A stretch of 64,000 bases of DNA from Candidatus Multivorans sp. (GCA_965262355.1 OZ253534.1:3425794-3489793); one strand, 5' to 3'. Positions 1,398-20,005 are shown, counted from the stretch's first letter. Program-made: numbers and translations. The notes: generated by a model not told the origin, from the letters alone.

Positions 1398-2540
1398 CTA
1401 GTGTAGTGTCTCCGACATGGGTTGACAGTCTCGGGCAAGTTCGTCAGTATTCCGTTCATGTGGGAACCAGCGGAACGACTTCACATCGAAGAGAGCGATC
1501 GAGCGCTTCTCAAGAAATGGGTAGAGGCGCCGACGACGACGCAACGCACCGTCCGGCGTAGCCGGATCGTGCTCGCTGCGGCGGAGGGCACGGCCAATCG
1601 GGCGATTGCGGCGAAACTCGGCGTTTCGCGGCCCACGGTGCTGCTGTGGCGTCGTCGGTTCGCGGAGGACGGACCTTCGGGGCTGACCAGGGATCGTCCC
1701 CGCGGTTGCGGAAAGCCGCCGCTCTCGGAGTCGGTCGTGCGTAAAATGATCGAAGCGACGCTGCACGAGAAGCCGCCCGGTCAGACCCACTGGAGCGTGC
1801 GTTCGATGGCTCGGGCCCAGGGCATCAGTCCGGCGGCGGTCCAGCGCATCTGGGTGGCGCACGGGCTGAAGCCCCATCTGGTCAAGACGTTCAAGCTGAG
1901 CAACGACCCCAGGTTCGTGGAAAAGCTGCGGGACGTTGTGGGCCTGTACCGGAATCCGCCCGAGAACGCGCTTGTGTTGTGCGTGGACGAGAAGAGCCAG
2001 ATCCAGGCTCTGGACCGGACCCAGCCGGGCTTGCCGCTCAAGCGCGGCCGCGCGGGAACGATGACCCACGACTACAAGCGCAACGGGACGACGACGTTGT
2101 TCGCTGCGCTGAACGTGTTGGAGGGCACGGTGATCGCGGAGTGCATGGGCCGGCAGCGCCACCAGGAGTTTCTCCGTTTCCTCAAGCGTCTCGACCGTGA
2201 GATCCCGAAGCATCTCGACCTGCACCTGATCCTGGACAACTACCAGACCCACAAACACGCCGCCGTGCGCGCATGGCTGGAGCGAAAGCCTCGCTTCCAC
2301 TTCCATTTCATTCCGACTTCGTCGCCCTGGCTCAACTTGGTCGAACGCTGGCTGGGCGGTCTGACCACGAAGGCGATCCGGCGCGGTGCATTCCAGAGCG
2401 TCAACGACCTCGTAAAGACCATCTACGACTACGTGGAGCACAGCAACGAAAACTCCCGGCCGTTCGTCTGGACGGCCACCGCCGACAGCATCATCGCAAA
2501 GGTTACACGTGGTAAAGCCATGTTGGAGACAGTACACTAG
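1398..2540 (+). mobile_element. IS630-family insertion sequence (single-ORF type) with ~23-bp imperfect terminal inverted repeats
   Basis: Left end ctagtgtagtgtctccgacatgg (1398-). The right end, reverse-complemented, reads ctagtgtactgtctccaacatgg (-2540), i.e. 21/23 matches. A transposase ORF lies inside and its TAG stop sits within the right repeat. Confidence 0.75.
1422..2540 (+). CDS. IS630-family (Tc1/mariner-like DDE) transposase
   Basis: 372 aa. The N-terminal HTH region (RSRIVLAAAEGTANRAIAAKLGVSRPTVLLWRRRF) and the C-terminal DDE region (LVLCVDEKSQIQAL … LHLILDNYQTHKH … PTSSPWLNLVERW) are typical of IS630. Confidence 0.85.
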   Translation: MTVSGKFVSIPFMWEPAERLHIEESDRALLKKWVEAPTTTQRTVRRSRIVLAAAEGTANRAIAAKLGVSRPTVLLWRRRFAEDGPSGLTRDRPRGCGKPPLSESVVRKMIEATLHEKPPGQTHWSVRSMARAQGISPAAVQRIWVAHGLKPHLVKTFKLSNDPRFVEKLRDVVGLYRNPPENALVLCVDEKSQIQALDRTQPGLPLKRGRAGTMTHDYKRNGTTTLFAALNVLEGTVIAECMGRQRHQEFLRFLKRLDREIPKHLDLHLILDNYQTHKHAAVRAWLERKPRFHFHFIPTSSPWLNLVERWLGGLTTKAIRRGAFQSVNDLVKTIYDYVEHSNENSRPFVWTATADSIIAKVTRGKAMLETVH

Positions 2541-5587: not shown

Positions 5588-6076
5588 ATGGCCATGGAAA
5601 CGACGATCCAGAAGCTGCGTCCCGAAGAGGCGGCTGAGCAGGTCTTCGCGGCTCACAGGCGCGACAGCGCATGGCTCGATCGCTTCACCGAGTGCCTCGC
5701 CGACTACCGGGAGGGCGCGGTTGGGAGAACAAGCCCCGCTGCCCGGCAGTCGGCCTCGGAACTGGCGCGCACGATCGAGGTTTGGCATCTCAGTCAGGCG
5801 AAGGCCGCCGCGTCTTTCCGTGTCAGCCGTCAGGCGTTCAGCAAGTGGCTGCAACGCGGCGTACCGGCGGACCACGCGGTAGCCGTGGCCGACCTGAAGG
5901 CCGCCACCGATCTGTTGGAGCGCTACATCAAGCGCGACAGGATACCCGCGGTGGTGCGGCGGCCGATACCGGCGCTCGACGGAGTCTCCCTGCTGGAGCT
6001 GCTGGGCCAAGGCGACACGGGCAGGCTCTTGTCCGCATGTCGCGACATGTTCGACTTCGAGCGGGCGCACGGGTGA
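5588..6076 (+). CDS. Xre/ParS/MbcA-type antitoxin (DUF2384-like) of a RES-Xre toxin-antitoxin pair
   Basis: ~160-aa protein immediately upstream of a RES-domain gene, overlapping it by 4 nt (GTGA). Assigned by size and gene context, typical for RES-associated antitoxins. Confidence 0.6.
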   Translation: MAMETTIQKLRPEEAAEQVFAAHRRDSAWLDRFTECLADYREGAVGRTSPAARQSASELARTIEVWHLSQAKAAASFRVSRQAFSKWLQRGVPADHAVAVADLKAATDLLERYIKRDRIPAVVRRPIPALDGVSLLELLGQGDTGRLLSACRDMFDFERAHG

Positions 6077-6621
6077 CGCCGGACCTGGTCGTCGAACGAA
6101 TCCCCGACGATCACTCTTGGTGGCGCATCGCCTACCCGATCTGGGCCGATCCGCTTGACCCTGGTTTCGCGCAACGGCGCGGCGGCCGGTGGAATCCGCC
6201 GGACAGTTTCCCGACGCTCTATCTGAACGAAGACAAGGTCACGGCGCGGCAGAATCTCCGGGCCTTCATCGACGGCTGGCCGTACGAACCGGAGGAGCTT
6301 CGGGACGACAACGGCCCGGTCCTTGTGGAATGCACGTTGCCGCGCCGCCAGGTCGTCTGCGACATGCACACGCCCGAAGGTGTCCGCGCTGCGGGCATGC
6401 CCGCCACGTACCCTCTAGAGAGCGACGGAGCGGTGGTCGGACACGACCGGTGCCAACTCATCGGAAAGCGGGCCAAGGACCAGGGGCTACGAGGTGTCCG
6501 GGCCCGGTCAGCGCGGTCCCCGGACGGCGCCGGGCGCGAGTTGGCTTGGTTCCAGGCTTCCGTTCGCAGCGTCGCCCGGCGAATCGCGACGTTGGCGTTC
6601 CCGGTGTGGCTCTGGGGATAG
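6073..6621 (+). CDS. RES-domain toxin
   Basis: …GGRWNPPDSFPTLYLNEDKVTARQNLRAF…PVLVECTLP… matches the R-E-S domain architecture. GTG start overlaps the antitoxin stop. Confidence 0.75.
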   Translation: MTPDLVVERIPDDHSWWRIAYPIWADPLDPGFAQRRGGRWNPPDSFPTLYLNEDKVTARQNLRAFIDGWPYEPEELRDDNGPVLVECTLPRRQVVCDMHTPEGVRAAGMPATYPLESDGAVVGHDRCQLIGKRAKDQGLRGVRARSARSPDGAGRELAWFQASVRSVARRIATLAFPVWLWG

Positions 6622-7276
6622 AACTGCAGCATCTGGGGCAGCCATAGCCCGATGCTCCGTGGTGTTCTCCAACACCCGGTGGCGAACTTGCTCGCCGGCT
6701 GCGGGCGGCCGGATCCGCAGGTCCGCCGAGCCCTCGTGACACAGCGCGGTAAGGGTCTGCGAACCGGACGTCGCCTGCGCTCGCAACACTGGGACCCTGC
6801 CGAAGTTCGCTTCAGCCGGGAACGGGCTCTTGCGCCATCTGACCCTCAAGGACTTGGCCTTGTCCGCGACTCCGGTCGGTTGCCGGGTCATCCTGGCGCT
6901 AGTGAGCGCCGGACCAGCTGTTGGGGACCGCACCACGGCAGCCGCCAGCGCGGCGCCCGCTCAAGGTCACGTCCGGTGCTAGTCTCCGCCGAGCGACGAC
7001 TTCACTGGGTTCACAAGAGAGCCGGCGAGGTGACGTGCAAGCCTGTCCACCACGGGACCCTGGGAGAAGGAAGGAACAGTGAGGAGAGCCGCTACCGCCG
7101 TCTTGCATATGGAATCGAACTTACCGCACGGCCCTGTAGGTCGCGGGATTCCTACACTTTGGCCCTGCACGAGTTGACTGAAGTCACTCCGAAGGACGCC
7201 CTCCTCGTCACGGTGGAATAGCCGGTGCCGACGGTTCATTCCGGGGTGCCTCCTTGTCCGGTGGGAGCTGCAGATC

Positions 7277-10123
7277 ATGACCGCACCTGAGGGTCTCAGG
7301 CACCTCGTGGAGCGATTCGAGCGCAATCTGGAGTCCTACGTCTCCGGGAGATACAACGAGACACAGCTACGCCGTGAATTCGTTGATCCCCTGTTCGAGT
7401 TGCTCGGCTGGGACGTCAGCAACTCAAACGGTCAACCGGAGGCCTTCAAGGATGTGGTGCATGAAGATGCCCTGAAGATCGGTGGGAGCACGAAAGCTCC
7501 AGACTACGCGTTCCGTGTGGGAGGCGACAGGAGGTTCTTCGTCGAGACCAAGGCGCCGCACAAAAACCTCAGCCGAGACGCAGACGCGGCGTTCCAGCTC
7601 CGGCGCTATGGCTGGTCCGCTAAACTCGATCTCTGCATTCTGACGGACTTCGAAGAGTTTTCAGTATACGACACGCGGGTCCGGCCCTTGAAGACGGATA
7701 GGGCTTCAACGGCCAGGGCTCTCTACATGCGCTACACGGACTACGTCGGCCGCTGGGAAGAACTCGCTCAGGTGTTCTCGCGTGATGCGCTGGTCTCTGG
7801 TGCCTTCGACAAGTACGCTGGCGCTGCGCGATCAATGCGCGGTACGACTGAAGTTGATGAATCGTTTCTTCAAGACCTCGAAGGCTGGCGCACGGCGTTA
7901 GCGAGGAATCTTGCCCTTCGAAACCCGAAGCTCGGACTGCGTCCTCTGAACACAGCCGTCCAGAGGACCCTCGATCGTATCGTGTTCCTTCGCATCTGCG
8001 AAGATCGAGGTATCGAGTCTTACGGACGGCTGATGGCTTTGCTAAATGGCTCTAACGTGTACCGCCGGCTGGCAGAAATCTTCGTCCACGCCGATGAGCG
8101 GTACAACTCTGGCCTGTTTCATTTCCGCGCCGAGGCAGGGCGGAGCGAGCCGCCCGACAGGCAGACTCTCGGCCTCACCATCGACGATGTGGTTCTCAAG
8201 GGGATCATCTCGCGCCTCTACTACCCCGAGAGTCCCTACGAGTTCTCCGTGTTCTCTGCTGACATTCTTGGTCAGGTGTATGAACAGTTCCTGGGCAAAG
8301 TAATCCGGCTGACCGCGGGCCATAGGGCAAAGGTCGAGGAGAAACCGGAAGTACGAAAGGCCGGCGGCGTCTACTATACCCCCGTCGGCGTGGTCGAGTA
8401 TCTAGTCCGTCACACCGTAGGCACCTTGTTAGAAGAGGCGGCAGCACCGGCGAGGGCCGCGGCCCTTCGGATCCTTGATCCCGCATGTGGCTCCGGCTCG
8501 TTCTTGATAGCGGCCTATGAGTCACTACTCTACTGGCATCTCCAGTGGTACCACGAAGACTGCATCGAGAAACACGCGAAGGGTCGGATGCCGAAAGTGT
8601 ACCAGGGGCGGGGAGGCGCATGGCGGTTGACGACTGAGGAGCGGAAACGAATCCTAACGAACAGCATTTTCGGCGTCGACGTGGACCCGCATGCAGTGGA
8701 GGTGACCAAGCTCTCACTTCTCCTCAAAGTGCTCGAGGGCGAGTCGAGCGATAGACTCGAGAGTCAACTGAGACTGTTCCGCCAAAGGGCGCTACCGGAC
8801 TTGGGAAACAACATCAGGTGCGGGAATGCTCTGGTTGGCACAGACTTCTACGAGGGAAGGCAGGATCTACTCTTCGACGCGGAGGAGAGTTTCCGCATCA
8901 ACGCTTTTGACTGGCATGCGGAGTTCCCCCGAGCAATTGGCGACGGGGGCTTCAGCGCTGTCATCGGGAACCCGCCGTACTTGTCCTTTTCAGGAAGACA
9001 GGCGGTTCGACTGGAGGACGGTCTACGTGAGTACTACGACCGACACTACCCGGGCGCTGGTTGGCAAACCAGTCACGGTCTATTTGTTGCAAAGGCGCAT
9101 TCGTTAAGCCATCGTATGGTTGGCCTAATCGTGCCCGATCAGGTCGGTCATTTGGCCGGCTACGAAGCGGTCCGGGCCAGTGTGACAAGCGCCTCGTCGC
9201 TCGTGTCGGTACGCTATTGGGGAGAGAACGTGTTCCCGGGTGTAGTTACGCCGGCTTTGACCTTCATTAGTGACAGGCGCCACGTTGGTAGCACCCGAAT
9301 TGAGAGGGTTGACGGTTCCGAGGCCATGTGCGGGGTGGCTGCGGGCGGGGCGTGGCTTTCTCCCTCACGCCATTCCGCTCTGGTGGATAAGTTGCGAGCC
9401 CAGGCGGCACCTCTGGAAGCTTCTTTTGCGGATCCCGGTGTGCATACAGGGAATTGTTCGAAGAAGCTGATTCTTGCTTCGGATGGCGCCCCTCCGGATG
9501 CGGTTCCCGTTCTTGAAGGGAAGCAGGTGGGGAGGTATTCCTGCCGCCGCCCGCCGAAGGTCGTCCGCCTCGGCTACGAAGCGTCCAAGGGTGAGTACTT
9601 CAGGATCGGGCCTGTCGAACGGTACCGAAGTGCGTCATTCGTGATCCGCCAGACGGCGGGATACCCGATCGTAGGGCCGCGGCAACACGCTGAGTATTTC
9701 CGGAACACGCTACTCGCCTTGTATCCTCCGGAGGACGGCAGGGACGTTCGGTTCGTCGTTGCTGTGTTGAACTCCCGGTTGATGCGTTACGCCTACAAGG
9801 TGCTGGTGGCGGAATCTGAGCAGAAGGCGTTTCCGCAAGTCAAGGTGCGTGCCCTTCGTGGGTTGCCTATTCGGTCCATAGAGTCGTCTACAACCAAAGA
9901 CGCTCATGATATTCTGTCGAGTTTGGTGGACGAGTTGGTCGGCCTCTACGCCGCTATGGAGTCGGCGGAGACGGCCCACGATCGGCAGGTGCTGAAGCGG
10001 AGGATTCACGGTCTGGACGGCGAAGTAGACCGACAGGTCGAAGAGATGTATGGCCTGTCGGATTCCGAGGTCGGGCAGGTCGAACAGTATCTTGACGGAC
10101 TCGGGGTGCTGGATGTGGCTTGA
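7277..10123 (+). CDS. Type IIG-like restriction-modification fusion: N-terminal PD-(D/E)xK nuclease domain, gamma-class N6-adenine DNA methyltransferase, C-terminal target-recognition region
   Basis: PDYAF…FFVETKAP (PD…E-x-K) in the N-terminal 120 aa. Methyltransferase motifs: GGVYYTPVGVVEYLV (motif X), LDPACGSGSFLIAAY (motif I, FxGxG) and VIGNPPY (motif IV, NPPY). 948 aa, in lower-GC DNA. Confidence 0.8.
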   Translation: MTAPEGLRHLVERFERNLESYVSGRYNETQLRREFVDPLFELLGWDVSNSNGQPEAFKDVVHEDALKIGGSTKAPDYAFRVGGDRRFFVETKAPHKNLSRDADAAFQLRRYGWSAKLDLCILTDFEEFSVYDTRVRPLKTDRASTARALYMRYTDYVGRWEELAQVFSRDALVSGAFDKYAGAARSMRGTTEVDESFLQDLEGWRTALARNLALRNPKLGLRPLNTAVQRTLDRIVFLRICEDRGIESYGRLMALLNGSNVYRRLAEIFVHADERYNSGLFHFRAEAGRSEPPDRQTLGLTIDDVVLKGIISRLYYPESPYEFSVFSADILGQVYEQFLGKVIRLTAGHRAKVEEKPEVRKAGGVYYTPVGVVEYLVRHTVGTLLEEAAAPARAAALRILDPACGSGSFLIAAYESLLYWHLQWYHEDCIEKHAKGRMPKVYQGRGGAWRLTTEERKRILTNSIFGVDVDPHAVEVTKLSLLLKVLEGESSDRLESQLRLFRQRALPDLGNNIRCGNALVGTDFYEGRQDLLFDAEESFRINAFDWHAEFPRAIGDGGFSAVIGNPPYLSFSGRQAVRLEDGLREYYDRHYPGAGWQTSHGLFVAKAHSLSHRMVGLIVPDQVGHLAGYEAVRASVTSASSLVSVRYWGENVFPGVVTPALTFISDRRHVGSTRIERVDGSEAMCGVAAGGAWLSPSRHSALVDKLRAQAAPLEASFADPGVHTGNCSKKLILASDGAPPDAVPVLEGKQVGRYSCRRPPKVVRLGYEASKGEYFRIGPVERYRSASFVIRQTAGYPIVGPRQHAEYFRNTLLALYPPEDGRDVRFVVAVLNSRLMRYAYKVLVAESEQKAFPQVKVRALRGLPIRSIESSTTKDAHDILSSLVDELVGLYAAMESAETAHDRQVLKRRIHGLDGEVDRQVEEMYGLSDSEVGQVEQYLDGLGVLDVA

Positions 10124-10859
10124 GCCCTGCTGGCTCACGAATCAGTCCGGCACGGTCATTCGGTTTCGCACATCGCAGCTTCCTCGCCTGCCTGATGCAG
10201 ATGTTGATCTGAGGATCGAGCTTTTTGATGGACGGGTGGTACCGGGGCGATTCCACCTAAACCGGGCCAATCCATACGTAGCGGGCCCTCGGGTTCGGCA
10301 GTTCATTCAGGCGCGCGTGGAGGAGCGGTCGAAGGAGCAAGCCTTGATCAGTATCGCCGGGCGCTATTGGCGTCTTATGGAGGCTCAGCACGTAGTAGCC
10401 GGTGTAGCCGGCTACGGCGTTAGCAGGACGCGTGCGGCCGAAGGGAAACTGGTGGGCAAGGATCTGGAGGGGATTCTTGAGCGGCTCGATGCAATCAGGG
10501 AGAGCTCGGGAAGAAGAGAAGCTTACGAGCGGTTGACTAGGCCGTCAGGACTCAGAGTGTTGGTGATTGGATTAATGGGCCCGACGTGCCAGGTCGAAGG
10601 TTGCGATGCAGCTGAGGCGAGCGCCGAGAAATGGGGTGATGCCGCTGCTGCACTGGCTGTACTCGACGTTCATCACATCGAGGCGGTTGCCAAGGTGCAG
10701 GACCACAGTCCGAAGAACCTCTGTGTGATCTGTGCGAATCATCATCGGCTGATTCATGGGTTTGGTCCGTGGGCTGTACGGCACGAAGACGATGACGTTC
10801 TGTTGGTTCAGGGAGGGAAGAAGCTCCGTATGGTACGTGATCTTTCTAGCTTGGCGTAG
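10113..10859 (+). CDS. HNH endonuclease-domain protein, translationally coupled to the RM fusion (ATGTGGCTTGA overlap)
   Basis: C-terminal HNH/zinc-finger signature CQVEGC…LDVHHIEAVAKVQDHSPKNLCVICANHHRLIHG. The N-terminal ~150 aa have no recognisable domain. Confidence 0.7.
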   Translation: MWLEPCWLTNQSGTVIRFRTSQLPRLPDADVDLRIELFDGRVVPGRFHLNRANPYVAGPRVRQFIQARVEERSKEQALISIAGRYWRLMEAQHVVAGVAGYGVSRTRAAEGKLVGKDLEGILERLDAIRESSGRREAYERLTRPSGLRVLVIGLMGPTCQVEGCDAAEASAEKWGDAAAALAVLDVHHIEAVAKVQDHSPKNLCVICANHHRLIHGFGPWAVRHEDDDVLLVQGGKKLRMVRDLSSLA

Positions 10860-15505: not shown

Positions 15506-15580
15506 CTGCAACCTACAGGGCGTTCGGATGAGTCTGGTCATTCGGTGACTTCCTCGTAAGGGACCACTATAGCCGTCTCT

Positions 15581-17008
15581 CTATGCGATGATGCCGTCGA
15601 CGATCAGGCCCTCGACGTCCGTCAATCGGAAATCGCGCCCCTGGGAACGGTACGTGAGCCGCTCGTGATCGAGACCCAGGAGATGCAGGATCGTGGCGTG
15701 GAGATCGTGGATGTGGACCTTGTCCTCGATCGCGTAGTAGCCGTAGTCGTCGGTGCGGCCGTGGCTGTGGCCGGGCTTCACGCCGCCGCCGGCCATGAAC
15801 ATGGTGTAGCCGTGGGGGTTGTGGTCGCGGCCGTTGCGGGCCCCGGCCTCGGCGCCGGGAGTGCGCCCGAACTCGCCGCCCCAGAGAACCAGGGTCTCCT
15901 CCAGCAGTCCGCGTGACTTGAGGTCCTTGATCAGGCCCGCCACCGGCCGGTCGACCTCGGCGCAGCTCTGCGGCAGGCCCGTGATCAGGCCCGAGTGGTG
16001 GTCCCACTTCGTGTCCGGACCGTGGGTGGCCTGCACGAAGCGTACGCCCGACTCCGAGAAGCGCCGCGCGAGGAGACAGCGGAGCCCGAAGTTCCGGGTC
16101 ACCGGGTCGTCGAGTCCGTAGAGCCGCCGCGTCGTCTCGGACTCGCCCTCGATGCTCATCAGCTCGGGCGCCTCGGTCTGCATGCGGAAGGCCAGCTCGA
16201 AGGACTCGATGCGGCCCTCGAGCGCCTGGTCGGGTCCGGTCTCCTCGAGCTGTCGGCGCTGCCAGCGCTGCAGCAGATCGAGCTCGCTGCGCTGCACCGC
16301 GGGCGACACCGACTCGTTGTCGAGGAAGTCGATCGTCGCCTCCTCGGTCTTCATCCGGGCCGCGCCTATCGCCGTGCCGTTGTAGGCGGCGGGCAGGAAG
16401 GCCGACGAGTAGTTCTGCACGCCGCCGTGCTGGTACGAGGGGCAGATGGTCATGAATCCGGGCAGGTTCTCGTTCTCGGTGCCCAGTCCGTAGGCGACCC
16501 ACGAGCCCATCGACGGACGCACGAAGCGGTCGCTGCCGGTGTTCATGGCCAGGATGGCGCCGCCGTGGGCGGCGTTGGTGCCCCACATCGAGCGAATGAA
16601 GCACAGCTCGTCGACCACCGAGGCGATGTTGGGCAGCAGCTCGCTCACCCAGGCGCCGGACTGGCCGTGCTGCTTGAACTCCCAGGGGCTCTTGAACAGG
16701 TTGCCGGTCTCGTTGAACTGCACGCGGGGCTTGGCGAAGGGCAGCGGTTTGTTGTCGTCGCGCACCAGCAGCGGCTTGTACTCGAAGAGGTCGTGCTGGG
16801 ATGGCCCGCCGTGCATGTGCAGGAAGATGATCCGCTTGGCCTTCGGGGCGAAGTGCGGTGCGCGGGGCGCCAGCGGGTTCGTCGACGTTGCGGCCAGGAG
16901 GTCGCGTTGAAGCAGCGAAGAGAGCGCCAGACCGCCGAAGCCGCAGCCGCAGGTCTTGAGCATCTGGCGACGGGTGAGAGGCGGCGGCTGGTGGTGAGGG
17001 AAACGCAT
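15581..17008 (-). CDS. DUF1501-family protein (Tat signal; sulfatase-like fold) paired with a PSCyt/DUF1553 protein
   Basis: MRFPHHQPPPLTRRQMLKTCGCGFGGLALSSLL twin-arginine signal, with DUF1501 conservation throughout. Confidence 0.8.
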   Translation of the reverse strand: MRFPHHQPPPLTRRQMLKTCGCGFGGLALSSLLQRDLLAATSTNPLAPRAPHFAPKAKRIIFLHMHGGPSQHDLFEYKPLLVRDDNKPLPFAKPRVQFNETGNLFKSPWEFKQHGQSGAWVSELLPNIASVVDELCFIRSMWGTNAAHGGAILAMNTGSDRFVRPSMGSWVAYGLGTENENLPGFMTICPSYQHGGVQNYSSAFLPAAYNGTAIGAARMKTEEATIDFLDNESVSPAVQRSELDLLQRWQRRQLEETGPDQALEGRIESFELAFRMQTEAPELMSIEGESETTRRLYGLDDPVTRNFGLRCLLARRFSESGVRFVQATHGPDTKWDHHSGLITGLPQSCAEVDRPVAGLIKDLKSRGLLEETLVLWGGEFGRTPGAEAGARNGRDHNPHGYTMFMAGGGVKPGHSHGRTDDYGYYAIEDKVHIHDLHATILHLLGLDHERLTYRSQGRDFRLTDVEGLIVDGIIA

Positions 17009-17020
17009 CGTCTCTTGGTC

Positions 17021-20005
17021 CTAACTGATGTAGATGAACTCGCTCGCCGACAGGATGACGTGGCAGAGCCGTGTCCAGGCGTAGATCTCGGCTTCGTCTT
17101 CCAGCGCCTTGCTGCGCATCTCGTCGAGGAAGGAGAGGCTGTCGGCGACATCGGCGGTGCTGGCGGGCCGCCCGTAGGCGCGGAGGAAGGCGGTATCGAT
17201 GCGTTCGCTGGCGCTCGCGTCTTCGATCTCCAGGAGCCGCTCGGCGAAGCCGCGTGCCGCCTCCTCCACGAGCGGGCTGTTCATCATCACGAGCGCCTGC
17301 CGCGGCACCACCGTCGCGGATCGATTGCCGACCGAGTCGCTGGCGTCGCCGAAATCGAAGCCGGCGAAGATCCTGTAGATGGCGGTGCGCACCACCGGCA
17401 TGTAGATGGAACGCCGTGGGGCGACATAGACGTCGGTGTTGCCGGAGTTGCCGCTTTCGCCGAAGACGTATCCCTTGGGGTCGTACTCCTCCACCCGTCC
17501 GCCCATCGTCAGATCGAGGCGGCCGGCGACCTGCAGCAGGGCGTCGCGAATCGGCTCGATCTCGAGCCGTCGCCGGTTCATGCGCCAGAGGAGGAGGTTC
17601 TCCTCGTCGACGGCGGCGTTGCCGGCGTCGTAGTCGGTCGACAACTGGTAGGTGCTCGACAGCATGATGTCCCGGTGCAGGTTCTTGAGCGACCACCCGC
17701 CTTCGACGAAGCGGCGCGCCAGCCAGTCGAGGAGTTGGGGATGGGTGGGAGCGCTGCCGATGGCGCCGAAGTTGCTCGGCGTCGCGACGATGCCGCGGCC
17801 GAAGTGCCAGCGCCAGACGCGGTTGACGATGACTCGCGCGGTCAGCGGGTGCTCGGGGTGGGTGATCCAGCGCGCCAACTCGAGGCGGCCGCTGGCGTCG
17901 GCGGCCACCGGCGGTGGCGGCGCCAGGTGGTCCGTGACCTTCAGGAAGCCGCGCGGCTCGGGTTCCTCGGCGAGGTTCAGGTGGCTGCCGCGAATGTGCA
18001 CCGGCAGGTCCACGATCTCCGCTTCGTCCACCGCCATGGCGTACGGCGGTTCGGGCGGGGAGGCTTCTTTCAACCGTTCGGCGTCGGCGCGCAGCTCGGC
18101 GAGCCGCTCCAGCGCCTCCGGCGGGTAGAGCTTCTCTTCCTCGTCCTGGTCGAGGCAGAGAATGCAGAAGTAGCCGCCGTAAACCAGCCATCGCAACTCC
18201 TCCTGCTCGCGCGGCAGCATGAAGTCCGAGGGCGCAAGGTCGTCCTCGTCCTTGAGCCCGAGTCGCATGAGGTGCTCTTCCCAGGCGATCTCGATTGTCG
18301 CGAAGAGGCTTCCGTAGCGCCAGGCGACCTCCTCCAGCGTCTTCGGCGCCGGCCCGCGGACGAGGCCCCGGGTCAGGGGCGCGGTCAGCACCTTCTCCGA
18401 GGCGATCATCGCCCGTAACTCTTCGGTCACCTGCTCGTAACGATCGGATGAGGCGGCGGCGAAGGCGTTCCAGATCACGAAGACGGCGCTTGGGCTCGGG
18501 GCATCCCCCTCGACCGGCGGGCCCTCCCGGTACCGGTAGAAGGCCCTGACCCAGAGCTCGACTACCGGTGCTTCCAGCCCCCGGTCCCCGGCGACCCGGG
18601 CGATCATCTGCTGGGCCGCCTGCTGCTTCGCCTCGTCGTCGCTCCAGCTCGGGTAGGCCTCCTCGGCGGCCAGCAGATACCGGGCGATAGCAGCGCGGCG
18701 CGGGCGGCGCAGGGCGTCGTTGTGCTCGCTGACCACCTCGTCGACCTTCTCTTGCGCTTCGGCCACGAGCTTCTGCGCCGCCTCGTACCGGGCGATCGCT
18801 TCTTCCGGGGCGAGGGGCCTCTCCAGCCAGCGCATGCTGCCGGCGTCGCTCATCGTCTCGGTAGAGCGCAGGACACCGGCCAGGGCGTAGTAGTCGGCCG
18901 TGGGGATGGGGTCGAACTTGTGGTCGTGGCAGCGGGCGCAGCCGATCGGCAGGCCCAGAAAGGCGCGGCCCACCGTGTTGACCTGCTCGTCGACGATGTC
19001 GATGAGCATCTTGTCGACGTCCTGCTCGGCGAGCACCTTGGGACCGAGCATCAGAAAGCCGGTGGCGGTGATCTGCTCGAAGCGCTGGGCGTCCGTCTCG
19101 GCCGTCATCAGGTCGCCGGCGATCTGTTCGTGGACGAACCGGTCGAAGGGCTTGTCGCGATTGAAGGAGTCGACCACGTAGTCGCGGTAGCGGAACGCGT
19201 TGCGGAAGGCGATGTTCTCGTCGAGGCCGTTCGAGTCGGCATAGCGGGCGATGTCGAGCCAATGGCGGCCCCAACGCTCACCGTAGTGCGGCGATGCGAG
19301 GAGCCGGTCGACGACCCTGGCGAAGGCGCCGGGGCCCCGGTCGGCGAGGAAGTCGGCGATCTCGGCTTCCGACGGGGCCAAGCCGATGAGATCGAAGGTG
19401 GCGCGGCGGAGCAGGGTGCGTTTGTCGGCCGCGGCCACTGGCTCAAGGCCCTTCCCTTCGAGTCGCGCCAGGATGAAGCGGTCGATCGGCCGGCTGATCC
19501 ACGCCTCGTTCTCGACCTCGGGCGGTGCGGGATCTGCGATCCGGCGGTAGGCCCAATGCTCGCGGCCGGCGGTGTAGTCGAACGACTCGGCTGGCCGGCT
19601 CGCTGCGGTCACCGTCCGCTCGCCGCCGGTCCGTGGGTCGGGAGCGCCCCGGCGGATCCACAGCTCGAAGTCGGCGATCACCGGTTCCGGCAGCTTGCCG
19701 TCCGGCGGCATCTGGGTGAGACGCTCATAGTGGAGCGCCTCGATGAGCAGGCTGTCCTCGGGCGATCCCGGAACGATCACCGCGCCGCTGTCGCCGCCGG
19801 CGCGCAGCCCCTCGGCATCGAGCAGAACCAGCCCGCCGCGGATCTTCTTCGGATCGCCGCCGTGACACTCGTAGCAGCGCTCGGCCAGGACCGGCCTGAT
19901 CTTCGACTCGAAGAACTCTAGATCGGCGGGGTCGGTCTCGGCGGCGCCGGCGACCGTGCCGACTGCCGCCAGCCAGGCGAAGGCAAAGGGCGCAGGACGA
20001 ATCAT
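17021..20005 (-). CDS. PSCyt1 / DUF1549 / DUF1553 multidomain protein (planctomycete-type cytochrome c domain protein)
   Basis: CYECHGGDPKKIRGGLVLLD (PSCyt heme-binding motif) at the N-terminus. 994 aa, in the canonical DUF1553-then-DUF1501 gene-pair arrangement. Confidence 0.8.
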   Translation of the reverse strand: MIRPAPFAFAWLAAVGTVAGAAETDPADLEFFESKIRPVLAERCYECHGGDPKKIRGGLVLLDAEGLRAGGDSGAVIVPGSPEDSLLIEALHYERLTQMPPDGKLPEPVIADFELWIRRGAPDPRTGGERTVTAASRPAESFDYTAGREHWAYRRIADPAPPEVENEAWISRPIDRFILARLEGKGLEPVAAADKRTLLRRATFDLIGLAPSEAEIADFLADRGPGAFARVVDRLLASPHYGERWGRHWLDIARYADSNGLDENIAFRNAFRYRDYVVDSFNRDKPFDRFVHEQIAGDLMTAETDAQRFEQITATGFLMLGPKVLAEQDVDKMLIDIVDEQVNTVGRAFLGLPIGCARCHDHKFDPIPTADYYALAGVLRSTETMSDAGSMRWLERPLAPEEAIARYEAAQKLVAEAQEKVDEVVSEHNDALRRPRRAAIARYLLAAEEAYPSWSDDEAKQQAAQQMIARVAGDRGLEAPVVELWVRAFYRYREGPPVEGDAPSPSAVFVIWNAFAAASSDRYEQVTEELRAMIASEKVLTAPLTRGLVRGPAPKTLEEVAWRYGSLFATIEIAWEEHLMRLGLKDEDDLAPSDFMLPREQEELRWLVYGGYFCILCLDQDEEEKLYPPEALERLAELRADAERLKEASPPEPPYAMAVDEAEIVDLPVHIRGSHLNLAEEPEPRGFLKVTDHLAPPPPVAADASGRLELARWITHPEHPLTARVIVNRVWRWHFGRGIVATPSNFGAIGSAPTHPQLLDWLARRFVEGGWSLKNLHRDIMLSSTYQLSTDYDAGNAAVDEENLLLWRMNRRRLEIEPIRDALLQVAGRLDLTMGGRVEEYDPKGYVFGESGNSGNTDVYVAPRRSIYMPVVRTAIYRIFAGFDFGDASDSVGNRSATVVPRQALVMMNSPLVEEAARGFAERLLEIEDASASERIDTAFLRAYGRPASTADVADSLSFLDEMRSKALEDEAEIYAWTRLCHVILSASEFIYIS

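What the first reader, a model, noticed from the sequence alone, without database searches (positions are those of the whole stretch)
7277..10859. Type IIG-like RM fusion translationally coupled to a separate HNH nuclease
The 948-aa protein has a PD-(D/E)xK motif (PDYAF…VETK) and gamma-class N6-adenine methyltransferase motifs (YYTP, DPACGSGSFL, NPPY), so it could by itself be a Type IIG enzyme. Its stop overlaps the start of a 248-aa HNH/zinc-finger protein (ATGTGGCTTGA). Either the fusion's nuclease domain is degenerate and the HNH protein is the cognate restriction enzyme, or this is a two-nuclease defence module. Neither arrangement is the textbook Type IIG layout. The locus sits in lower-GC DNA.
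Basis: partly seen in the sequence, partly recalled or inferred. Interest (0 to 1): 0.6.

Follow-up and report, generated by a model that had tools for sequence, protein, structure and literature searches.

The report
Type IIG enzyme with matched HNH nuclease
A bacterial restriction-modification enzyme that already has its own DNA-cutting domain is encoded together with a second small nuclease from an undescribed family, and across many bacteria this nuclease is inherited with the DNA-recognition part of its partner methyltransferase, including inside larger anti-phage systems.

Summary
A 948-aa Type IIG restriction-modification gene (7277-10123) overlaps by 11 nt a 248-aa gene (10113-10859). 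Both lie in a 3.6-kb low-GC patch of a planctomycete chromosome.

The large protein has an intact PD-ExK nuclease (D76/E90/K92), gamma-class N6-adenine methyltransferase motifs and a TaqI_C-type target recognition domain (TRD).

The small protein belongs to a rare, unnamed family. It has an N-terminal domain predicted to fold like B3 DNA-binding pseudobarrels, a helical linker, and a zinc-finger HNH nuclease homologous to McrA.

Every full-length family member examined abuts an Eco57I/PglX-like methyltransferase. The partners are Type IIG enzymes, DISARM class 1 DrmMI, ARMADA-type-I-like methyltransferases and methyltransferases paired with PLD-SNF2 helicases.

The HNH gene follows the TRD, not the enzyme core. 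None of the 77 sampled Type IIG relatives has an HNH homologue. They are 50-64% identical to the window enzyme in the nuclease domain but have unrelated TRDs. DISARM and ARMADA-like methyltransferases that do have the HNH neighbour share about 41-44% TRD identity with the window.

Best reading: a two-nuclease restriction-modification module whose HNH subunit is matched to the TRD. The "degenerate nuclease", homing-endonuclease and BREX readings are not supported. How the HNH is coupled to the TRD remains inferred.

The parts
7277..10123 (+). Type IIG restriction-modification gene (948 aa): PD-ExK nuclease, helical linker, gamma-class N6-adenine methyltransferase, TRD and C-terminal helices
   Evidence: ORF. 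PADLOC REase_MTase_IIG PDLC03604, E 3.3e-162 over residues 6-668. Pfam HSDR_N 61-135, N6_Mtase/MmeI_Mtase/Eco57I 328-653, TaqI_C 744-865.
7499..7552 (+). PD...ExK nuclease catalytic motif (P75-D76 ... E90-T-K92), followed by QLRRY at 7595-7609
   Evidence: Sequence. D76/E90/K92 invariant in 11/11 HNH-linked and 43-44/45 HNH-less relatives.
8372..8980 (+). Methyltransferase catalytic core: YYTP (8372-8383), SAM-binding motif I DPACGSGSFL (8477-8506), motif IV NPPY (8969-8980)
   Evidence: NPP invariant in 56 relatives. Homology to CamA and BREX PglX methyltransferase domains.
9257..9886 (+). Target recognition domain (residues 661-870; TaqI_C-like). This is the part of the enzyme that co-occurs with the HNH gene.
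   Evidence: Pfam TaqI_C. This segment is 41-71% identical only in methyltransferases that carry the HNH neighbour, and absent or marginal in 60+ Type IIG relatives without it.
10113..10123 (+). 11-nt overlap ATGTGGCTTGA: start codon of the HNH gene and stop codon of the Type IIG gene (translational coupling inferred)
   Evidence: Overlaps of 1-11 nt or gaps under 10 nt in most homologous loci.
10113..10859 (+). 248-aa nuclease gene: B3-like domain, helical linker, McrA-type zinc-finger HNH
10113..10412 (+). N-terminal domain (residues 1-100), predicted B3-like DNA-binding pseudobarrel
   Evidence: AF2 pLDDT 89.5 for the isolated domain. Foldseek top hits are almost exclusively B3-like domains, including LlaJI.R1-N, UbaLAI, NgoAVII and plant B3 (probability up to 0.98, TM 0.5-0.56, weak E-values).
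10587..10757 (+). HNH (beta-beta-alpha-metal) nuclease with CX4C...CX2C zinc finger: C159/C164, H187-H188, N202, C204/C207, H210-H211, H215
   Evidence: Invariant columns in 31-32 homologues. The family profile matches ScoMcrA (E 3.9e-8) and EcoKMcrA (E 2.8e-7) across linker and HNH. Pfam HNH scores only 14 bits for the window protein, below the cut-off.
7200..10800 (.). Low-GC patch (0.57-0.62 against 0.64-0.70) coextensive with the two genes; probably a horizontally acquired cassette
   Evidence: No tRNA or flanking repeats. Homologues 65-72% identical occur in unrelated phyla.

Best explanation
The locus is a horizontally acquired, two-gene, two-nuclease restriction-modification module.

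Gene 1 is a complete MmeI/Eco57I-like Type IIG enzyme. Its TRD reads a DNA site. Its gamma-class methyltransferase marks an adenine there as 'self'. Its N-terminal PD-ExK domain cuts unmarked DNA.

Gene 2 is probably translationally coupled to gene 1, so the two proteins would be made together. It is a dedicated second endonuclease with a B3-like DNA-binding domain joined by a helical linker to a McrA-type HNH cleavage domain. Its action is tied to the TRD of gene 1.

I think the more likely coupling is that the small protein works as a trans-acting subunit. It would be recruited to, or licensed by, the TRD-bound enzyme at unmethylated sites. It would supply a second catalytic centre, so that one complex can cut both strands or make an extra cut or nick.

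The close alternative is that the B3-like domain itself reads the same unmethylated site, making the small protein an independent Type IIS-like restriction enzyme protected by gene 1's methylation.

The same nuclease-plus-TRD pair is also found with DISARM class 1, ARMADA-type-I-like and PLD-SNF2/methyltransferase systems. There it would provide a methylation-sensitive cut.

Shown here: gene structure, domain content, conservation of catalytic residues, strict adjacency, co-divergence, and association with the TRD. Inferred: DNA binding by the B3-like domain, methylation sensitivity, physical interaction, and cleavage.
For: (1) Domains.
- The large protein is a Type IIG enzyme.
- The small protein's HNH and zinc ligands are invariant, and its linker plus HNH is homologous to McrA.
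- The N-domain model is confident (pLDDT 89.5). Its structural neighbours are B3-like DNA-recognition domains, several of them from restriction enzymes.

(2) Linkage.
- In every locus with a full-length family member and enough flank, an Eco57I/PglX-like methyltransferase is the immediate neighbour. This holds across Type IIG (WIN, L001, L002, L008, L010, L012-L015, L017, and L021 in reversed order), DISARM class 1 (L004-L006, confirmed by PADLOC), ARMADA-type-I-like (L018, L019) and PLD-SNF2 loci (L020).
- The only copies without a methyltransferase are N-terminally truncated and sit next to transposases.

(3) Association with the TRD.
- The window TRD (residues 661-870) finds 41-71% identity only in HNH-linked methyltransferases. 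These include DrmMI and ARMADA-like enzymes that lack the nuclease domain and share only 33-42% identity over about 120-130 aa of the methyltransferase core.
- None of the 77 sampled Type IIG relatives carries an HNH homologue, although they are 50-64% identical to the window in the nuclease domain and 57-80% in the linker. Of these, 38 have a complete C-terminus and at least 700 bp downstream. Their TRD similarity is at most marginal.
- Pairwise identity of the HNH protein correlates best with TRD identity (r 0.80-0.88, against 0.70-0.80 for the methyltransferase core).

(4) A second family (P0105 type) has a different N-domain but a homologous linker and HNH. It sits after methyltransferases with a different, mutually related TRD (L022, L106, L107).

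(5) The PD-ExK residues are conserved whether or not the HNH is present, so the HNH adds to the resident nuclease rather than replacing it.

(6) The close Type IIG relatives without HNH have no shared coupled downstream gene, so the HNH is a specific addition.
Against: - There is no biochemical or genetic evidence.
- The B3-like assignment rests on predicted structure only, with weak Foldseek E-values (0.02-1) and no sequence-level match.
- The HNH region of the full-length model has low confidence (pLDDT below 50 for residues 190-218).
- The TRD lies at the 3' end of the methyltransferase gene, directly next to the HNH gene. Physical linkage alone could therefore move the two together during recombination.
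- The HNH-containing and HNH-less loci came from different searches, so the contrast is not an unbiased census.
- The reverse test is imperfect. L105 has a TRD about 34% identical to the window's but no HNH, and L104 has the same TRD type without HNH, though its Type IIG gene is frameshifted.
- The B3-like domain diverges faster (34-37% identity) than the TRD (54-56%) between subclades. This does not fit simple reading of the same site.
- If this Type IIG enzyme methylates only one strand, as MmeI does (PMC2731913), a fully independent second restriction enzyme would endanger newly replicated host DNA. This argues for the dependent-subunit version, but nothing here tests it.
Confidence: 0.55

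Rival explanations
1. The small protein is an independent McrA-like Type IV (modification-dependent) restriction enzyme. It merely sits beside the Type IIG gene, as defence genes often cluster. The B3-like domain would read a foreign DNA modification, and there would be no functional tie to the methyltransferase.
For: The linker and HNH are homologous to ScoMcrA and EcoKMcrA, both Type IV enzymes. There is a weak PADLOC hit to mREase_IV (E 0.0019). The architecture of an N-terminal specificity domain plus a C-terminal HNH is that of McrA-type enzymes.
Against: - Adjacency is strict, often with overlapping stop and start codons, in about 20 loci spanning four system architectures and many phyla.
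- The HNH gene associates with the TRD type and co-diverges with it.
- It sits inside the DISARM operon, between drmMI and drmA.
- No full-length solitary copies were found.
- The structural neighbours of the N-domain are B3 domains, which bind unmodified sites. None is an SRA, PUA, EVE or winged-helix modified-base reader.
Confidence: 0.15
2. The HNH protein is the only working restriction nuclease. The Type IIG-like protein acts in practice as its cognate methyltransferase, and its PD-ExK domain is retained but is not the effector.
For: HNH-linked methyltransferases in DISARM, ARMADA-like and PLD-SNF2 loci lack any PD-ExK domain. The HNH can therefore partner a pure methyltransferase. A modular B3-like plus HNH architecture could be a self-sufficient Type IIS-like enzyme.
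Against: D76, E90 and K92 and the QLRRY motif are invariant in all 11 HNH-linked Type IIG enzymes. The nuclease domain is as conserved (46-74% identity) as in the solitary relatives, which must rely on it.
Confidence: 0.12
3. The HNH gene is a selfish or mobile HNH homing endonuclease, or a leftover passenger. It is commonly adjacent to the restriction-modification enzyme but unrelated to it.
For: HNH homing endonucleases are common. The cassette is low-GC and horizontally mobile. L021 lies next to a relaxase.
Against: - The family is tiny: 176 representatives among 1.84 billion.
- It has no match in plasmids and only one marginal match in viral contigs.
- It is never free-standing.
- It always keeps the same position and orientation relative to the methyltransferase (reversed only in L021) and co-diverges with it.
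- Its length is conserved at about 248 aa and its domains are conserved.
Confidence: 0.03
4. The small protein is a guard or back-up effector held inactive by binding the methyltransferase or TRD. It would be released as a toxic nuclease when a phage anti-restriction protein attacks the restriction-modification enzyme. This would be a retaliation or abortive-infection logic, like PrrC with EcoprrI.
For: The tight methyltransferase/TRD association across different systems is what a decoy-guard pair would show. Translational coupling would fix the stoichiometry. The PrrC analogy is from my own knowledge.
Against: Nothing specific supports it. No anti-restriction sensor domain was found. The B3-like domain is best known as a DNA-recognition domain (PMC3973309, PMC12065111). 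Truncated copies that lack a methyltransferase partner fit a toxic nuclease, but they fit a cognate restriction enzyme equally well.
Confidence: 0.1

Closest known systems
MmeI/Eco57I-type Type IIG (IIL) single-chain restriction-modification enzymes
   Same: The 948-aa protein has the same order of parts: an N-terminal PD-ExK nuclease, a gamma-class N6-adenine methyltransferase and a C-terminal TRD. Its closest relatives are solitary single-gene systems.
   Different: Textbook Type IIG systems have no second nuclease. Eco57I is accompanied by an extra methyltransferase, not a nuclease (own knowledge). Sequence similarity to solved members is low: MmeI was not recovered by phmmer against PDB sequences.
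McrA-family HNH Type IV restriction enzymes (EcoKMcrA 6ghc, ScoMcrA 5zmm)
   Same: Homologous helical linker and zinc-finger HNH module (E 3e-7 to 4e-8). The layout of an N-terminal specificity domain plus a C-terminal HNH is shared.
   Different: The N-terminal domain is B3-like, not NEco, SBD or SRA. The gene is obligately paired with an m6A methyltransferase and its TRD, which has no counterpart in McrA biology.
Restriction enzymes that use B3-like pseudobarrel recognition domains (EcoRII-N, BfiI-C, UbaLAI, NgoAVII/CglI R-protein, LlaJI.R1)
   Same: The predicted fold of residues 1-100 matches these domains. The modular recognition-plus-nuclease design is shared. In L018-L020 the module sits with SF2/SNF2 ATPases, which recalls the NgoAVII/CglI R-protein plus N-protein arrangement (own knowledge).
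   Different: The nuclease here is HNH rather than PLD, PD-ExK or McrC-like. There is no detectable sequence similarity. DNA binding is untested. The partner methyltransferase is a PglX-like N6-adenine enzyme.
DISARM class 1 and ARMADA type I (YprA-helicase defence systems with a BrxHII-like helicase and a PglX-like methyltransferase)
   Same: Homologues of the window's HNH protein and of its TRD occur inside these operons, directly after DrmMI or the ArmB-like methyltransferase. The systems are described in bioRxiv 10.1101/2025.09.15.676423 and PMC13463889.
   Different: The window has no DrmA/B/C/D, YprA or SNF2 genes. In the sources checked, the published component lists do not mention an HNH gene.
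Heterodimeric Type IIS enzymes with a large recognition-and-nicking subunit and a small second-strand nuclease (BtsI, BsrDI, BspD6I)
   Same: A mechanistic analogy for the dependent-subunit version: a small protein supplies the second catalytic site to a large site-recognising subunit (own knowledge).
   Different: No homology was tested or expected. Those large subunits are not methyltransferase fusions.

Membership tests
Type IIG restriction-modification enzyme | Endonuclease, methyltransferase and target recognition in one polypeptide | tested here: met
   Pfam HSDR_N 61-135, N6_Mtase/MmeI_Mtase/Eco57I 328-653 and TaqI_C 744-865. PADLOC REase_MTase_IIG, E 3.3e-162.
Type IIG restriction-modification enzyme | Intact PD-(D/E)xK catalytic residues | tested here: met
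   P75-D76...E90-x-K92 present and invariant in 11/11 HNH-linked and 43-44/45 other relatives.
Type IIG restriction-modification enzyme | Gamma-class N6-adenine methyltransferase motifs (motif I before motif IV NPPY) | tested here: met
   DPACGSGSFL at 401-410 and NPPY at 565-568.
Type IIG restriction-modification enzyme | SAM-dependent cleavage at a fixed distance from an asymmetric site, with methylation of that site | not testable with these tools
   Needs biochemistry and methylome sequencing.
HNH (beta-beta-alpha-metal) nuclease | Catalytic His, Asn and metal-binding His, with a CxxC-type zinc finger | tested here: met
   C159, C164, H187, H188, N202, C207, H210, H211 and H215 are invariant in 32 sequences. 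The family profile matches McrA HNH domains at E 4e-8. Pfam HNH for the window protein alone is below the cut-off (14 against 21.4 bits); of the relatives scanned, only P0058 and P0061 reach it.
B3-like DNA-binding pseudobarrel (EcoRII-N/BfiI-C/plant B3) | Seven-stranded pseudobarrel fold with two helices | tested here: inconclusive
B3-like DNA-binding pseudobarrel (EcoRII-N/BfiI-C/plant B3) | Sequence-specific DNA binding | not testable with these tools
   Needs EMSA or a structure with DNA.
BREX (PglX) | PglX equivalog score and companion genes (PglZ, BrxC, BrxL and others) | tested here: not met
   The best NCBIfam PglX hit is 55 bits against a 500-bit cut-off. The neighbours are a RES-domain protein, an SSF symporter, a sulfatase and planctomycete PSCyt/DUF1501 genes.
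DISARM class 1 | DrmA, DrmB and DrmC core with DrmD and DrmMI | tested here: not met
   No such genes lie within 10 kb in the window. Relatives of the HNH gene do sit inside genuine DISARM operons (L005).
Type IV McrA-like restriction enzyme | Modified-base reader domain and modification-dependent cleavage | tested here: inconclusive
   The HNH module is homologous. The N-domain does not resemble known modified-base readers. Modification dependence is not testable here.
HNH homing endonuclease | Free-standing or intron/intein-borne copies with varied insertion contexts | tested here: not met
   All full-length copies are next to an Eco57I-type methyltransferase. There is no match in plasmids and only one marginal match in viral contigs.

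The most novel reading that the evidence does not exclude
The B3-like/HNH protein and its matched TRD form a portable 'recognition-plus-cut' cassette. This cassette plugs into at least four methyltransferase-based defence architectures: solitary Type IIG enzymes, DISARM class 1, ARMADA-type-I-like systems and PLD-SNF2/methyltransferase pairs. In the helicase-based systems, the HNH would make the initial methylation-sensitive nick or break that creates the DNA end or single strand on which DrmAB or YprA motors load. That would supply a missing self/non-self trigger step for these variants. In the window, it would turn a single-active-site Type IIG enzyme into a heteromeric enzyme with two different catalytic centres.
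Probability: 0.3. Interest if true: 0.75.

Novelty: new variant of a known kind. Interest (0 to 1): 0.62.

Why it matters
- Type IIG enzymes are regarded as self-contained. A conserved, TRD-matched second nuclease would be a new subunit arrangement for restriction-modification.
- It offers one way round the single-active-site problem, namely how one nuclease domain cuts two strands.
- The same nuclease family lies inside DISARM class 1 and ARMADA-like operons, where how unmethylated DNA is first recognised and cut is still unclear. The family is therefore a concrete, testable candidate for that step.
- The small protein belongs to a family that no Pfam or NCBIfam model assigns. It may be a compact, programmable-looking nuclease (recognition domain plus HNH) of possible use as an enzyme.
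- The finding that a neighbouring gene follows the TRD rather than the enzyme core is a general comparative-genomic test for specificity-linked partners.

Tried and rejected
- A database search with the TRD segment alone returned only 36 short fragments. No full-length proteins came back, so the reverse test (do all methyltransferases with this TRD have the HNH?) could be done on only three loci. L104 is a frameshifted Type IIG gene without HNH, L105 has a distant TRD without HNH, and L103 is a remnant.
- Searches of plasmids (no match) and viral contigs (one marginal HNH-only match) gave no annotated relatives.
- Cluster look-ups gave no source names for either protein.
- Literature searches found no description of an HNH partner for Type IIG, DrmMI or ArmB. 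The ARMADA/YprA preprint contains no occurrence of 'HNH'.
- Promoter and terminator scans showed nothing above the shuffled expectation. No tRNA or flanking repeats mark the island borders.
- Rejected, degenerate PD-ExK: the residues are conserved.
- Rejected, BREX PglX: score far below the cut-off and no companion genes.
- Rejected, homing endonuclease: never free-standing.
- Rejected, alternative start at 10050 (269 aa): homologues start at the position of 10113.
- The HNH-less Type IIG relatives have no alternative conserved downstream partner.

Full report
**Observation**

The window holds an ORF at 7277-10123 (+, 948 aa). A second ORF, in another frame, has its ATG at 10113 and ends at 10859 (248 aa). 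The sequence ATGTGGCTTGA at 10113-10123 contains both the start of the small gene and the stop of the large one, so the overlap is 11 nt.

- PDYAF at residues 75-79 and VETK at 89-92
- YYTP at 366-369
- DPACGSGSFL at 401-410
- NPPY at 565-568

GC content is 0.57-0.62 exactly between about 7200 and 10800, and 0.64-0.70 on either side. No tRNA gene or flanking repeat marks the borders.

The surrounding genes are ordinary planctomycete chromosome content: a sulfatase, an SSF symporter, PSCyt1/PSCyt2/PSD1 and DUF1501 proteins, and an IS630-type transposase at 1422-2540. No BREX, DISARM or SNF2 genes lie nearby.

**The large protein**

It is a Type IIG enzyme by every sequence test available:
- PADLOC REase_MTase_IIG model PDLC03604, E 3.3e-162, over residues 6-668.
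- Pfam HSDR_N (61-135), N6_Mtase/MmeI_Mtase/Eco57I (328-653) and TaqI_C (744-865).
- BREX PglX, DrmMI and MAD2 models match only through the shared methyltransferase core, far below their cut-offs. NCBIfam PglX scores 55 bits against 500.

Its nuclease is not degenerate. P75-D76...E90-x-K92 and the following QLRRY motif are invariant in all 11 Type IIG proteins that have an HNH neighbour. D76, E90 and K92 are also conserved in 43-44 of 45 relatives that do not.

**The small protein**

No Pfam or NCBIfam model reaches its threshold. Pfam HNH scores 14 bits against a cut-off of 21.4.

The family is small and has no informative annotation (the few source names are 'hypothetical protein'):
- A word-indexed search of 5.8 billion proteins found 55 clusters, nearly all 245-254 aa.
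- An exhaustive profile search of 1.84 billion representatives found 176 hits at E ≤ 1e-3. About 30 of these are full-length relatives.

The alignment shows an intact zinc-finger HNH. C159, C164, H187, H188, N202, C207, H210, H211 and H215 are invariant, and C204 nearly so.

A profile of the family matches the helical linker plus HNH of ScoMcrA (5zmm, E 3.9e-8) and EcoKMcrA (6ghc, E 2.8e-7). The cleavage module is therefore of the McrA type.

The N-terminal 100 residues form a separate, confidently predicted domain. pLDDT is above 90 in the full-length model and 89.5 when the domain is modelled alone. Its Foldseek neighbours in the PDB are almost exclusively B3-like DNA-binding pseudobarrels:
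- LlaJI.R1 N-domain (probability 0.98)
- UbaLAI B3
- NgoAVII B3 (TM 0.53-0.56, rmsd 3.0-3.5 Å)
- plant B3 domains

**Genomic association**

I examined the neighbourhoods of family members from the protein search and from a scan of one genome per species. ORFs were compared by BLAST, and Pfam and PADLOC were run on the neighbours.

Every full-length copy lies directly beside an Eco57I/PglX-like N6-adenine methyltransferase with a TaqI_C-type TRD. It is usually downstream, with a 1-11 nt overlap or a gap under 10 nt. Four architectures occur:
- (a) Type IIG plus HNH, as in the window. Loci: L001, L002, L008, L010, L012-L015, L017. In L021 the order is reversed and the pair lies next to a relaxase.
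- (b) Genuine DISARM class 1, with the HNH gene between drmMI and drmA. Loci: L004-L006. In L005, PADLOC scores are DrmD 1452, DrmMI 1263, DrmA 1766, DrmB 264 and DrmC 193 bits.
- (c) ARMADA-type-I-like: a YprA/DUF1998/Vsr helicase, an SNF2 helicase, the methyltransferase, then the HNH. Loci: L018, L019. The gene order is as described in bioRxiv 10.1101/2025.09.15.676423.
- (d) A PLD-SNF2 fusion, the methyltransferase, then the HNH. Locus: L020.

The hosts span Alphaproteobacteria, Gammaproteobacteria, Chloroflexota, Rhodothermales, Gemmatimonadota, Planctomycetota, Myxococcota and Elusimicrobiota. Identity reaches 65-70% between phyla, which indicates horizontal transfer of the pair.

The only copies without a methyltransferase are N-terminally truncated and lie next to transposases (L007, L009).

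**The key result: the HNH gene follows the TRD, not the enzyme**

A metagenome scan with the window's Type IIG protein returned 77 relatives. None has an HNH-family homologue. Of these, 38 have a complete C-terminus and at least 700 bp of downstream sequence. They share no other coupled downstream gene either.

These relatives are as close to the window enzyme as the more distant HNH-linked ones (L002, L008, L017, L021). Identities to the window are 50-64% in the nuclease domain, 57-80% in the linker and 41-72% in the methyltransferase domain. Their TRD, however, shows no similarity or only marginal similarity (at most 54 bits).

Conversely, the window TRD (residues 661-870) is 43-71% identical in all HNH-linked Type IIG enzymes. 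It is also 41-44% identical in the HNH-linked DISARM DrmMI and ARMADA-like methyltransferases. Those enzymes have no nuclease domain at all and share only 33-42% identity with the window over about 120-130 residues of the methyltransferase core.

Across 136 locus pairs, identity of the HNH protein correlates best with TRD identity (Pearson 0.80-0.88, against 0.70-0.80 for the methyltransferase core).

A second family has 310-350 aa, a different N-domain and a homologous linker and HNH. It also lies directly after Eco57I-type methyltransferases (L106, L107, L022). The TRDs of those methyltransferases resemble each other (45-68% identity) but not the window's. The N-domain type and the TRD type therefore switch together.

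**Interpretation**

The HNH protein is not a passenger, a homing endonuclease or a replacement for a dead nuclease. It is a dedicated partner whose presence depends on the recognition module of the methyltransferase. Two mechanisms fit this.

1. The B3-like domain docks on, or is licensed by, the TRD-bound enzyme, and the HNH supplies a second catalytic centre.
2. The B3-like domain reads the same unmethylated site, so the protein is an independent Type IIS-like restriction enzyme that only a methyltransferase with the matching TRD can hold in check.

I lean to the first, for two reasons:
- MmeI-type enzymes typically modify one strand only (PMC2731913). That would make an independent second enzyme dangerous after replication.
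- The B3-like domain diverges faster than the TRD.

Nothing here decides between the two.

**Caveats**

- The TRD is physically next to the HNH gene, so linkage alone contributes to their moving together.
- The two locus sets came from different searches, so this is not an unbiased census.
- The reverse test was limited. L104 has the same TRD type but no HNH, and its Type IIG gene is frameshifted. L105 has a TRD about 34% identical and no HNH.

**Comparison with known systems**

- The large protein is a member of the Type IIG class.
- The small protein's nuclease is McrA-like, and its N-domain is B3-like.
- The combination, and its obligate pairing with PglX-like methyltransferases, was not found in the literature searched. 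It is not in the published component lists of DISARM or ARMADA that I read.

I classify it as a new variant of a known kind: a restriction-modification module with an added, TRD-matched nuclease subunit from an undescribed family.

**Verdict**

The two-nuclease module is supported. The degenerate-nuclease option, PglX and the homing-endonuclease reading are not.
- Interest is moderate to high, because the same cassette appears in DISARM and ARMADA-like systems and suggests direct experiments.

Noticed in passing
L106 8870-9802; L107 5642-6637; L022 9926-10636: A second small family (P0105 type, 310-350 aa) shares the helical linker and HNH with the window protein but has a different, unassigned N-terminal domain of about 190 aa. 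It too lies directly after Eco57I-type methyltransferases. In L106 a PLD-SNF2 helicase lies 2 kb downstream.
   Followed up: partly
L004 8001-8759; L005 8001-8759; L006 5356-6114: Genuine DISARM class 1 operons (DrmD, DrmMI, DrmA, DrmB, DrmC) carry an extra HNH-family gene between drmMI and drmA. This component is not mentioned in the DISARM and ARMADA descriptions I read. L004 also has an Ea47-like gene between drmD and drmMI.
   Followed up: partly
window 5671-6621 and 6652-7221: Directly upstream of the cassette lie a 316-aa protein with a C-terminal RES domain (Pfam E 2.6e-8) and a 189-aa ORF with no family match. They sit in normal-GC DNA. They may be a RES-type toxin pair or another defence gene. 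No Xre-like antitoxin was recognised.
   Followed up: no
window 1422-2540: An IS630-family transposase (DDE_3 plus HTH domains) lies about 5 kb upstream of the cassette. A long antisense ORF (1398-2537) overlaps it and is probably spurious.
   Followed up: no
L104 4652-7528: A Type IIG gene with the same TRD type as the window (55-63% identity) is broken into at least three frames and has no HNH gene downstream. It may be a decaying copy of the module after loss of the nuclease partner.
   Followed up: partly
L007 730-1266; L009 8001-8693: The only HNH-family copies without an adjacent methyltransferase are N-terminally truncated (178 and 230 aa) and start right after transposase genes. This fits IS-mediated disruption of the module.
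   Followed up: partly
L021 138-6450: Here the gene order is reversed (the HNH gene comes first and overlaps the Type IIG start by 4 nt). The pair follows a MobA/VirD2 relaxase-DUF3363 gene, which suggests carriage on a conjugative or mobilisable element.
   Followed up: no
window 10200-10800: GC skew over the HNH gene is unusually positive (+0.23) compared with the rest of the window (mostly within ±0.1). This is unexplained; it may reflect the composition of the donor genome.
   Followed up: no
window 15567-19274 (-) against 15581-17008 and 17021-20005 (-): A 1235-aa ORF with no family match overlaps two well-supported genes (DUF1501; PSCyt1/PSCyt2/PSD1) on the same strand in another frame. 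It is a typical spurious long ORF in high-GC DNA.
   Followed up: no
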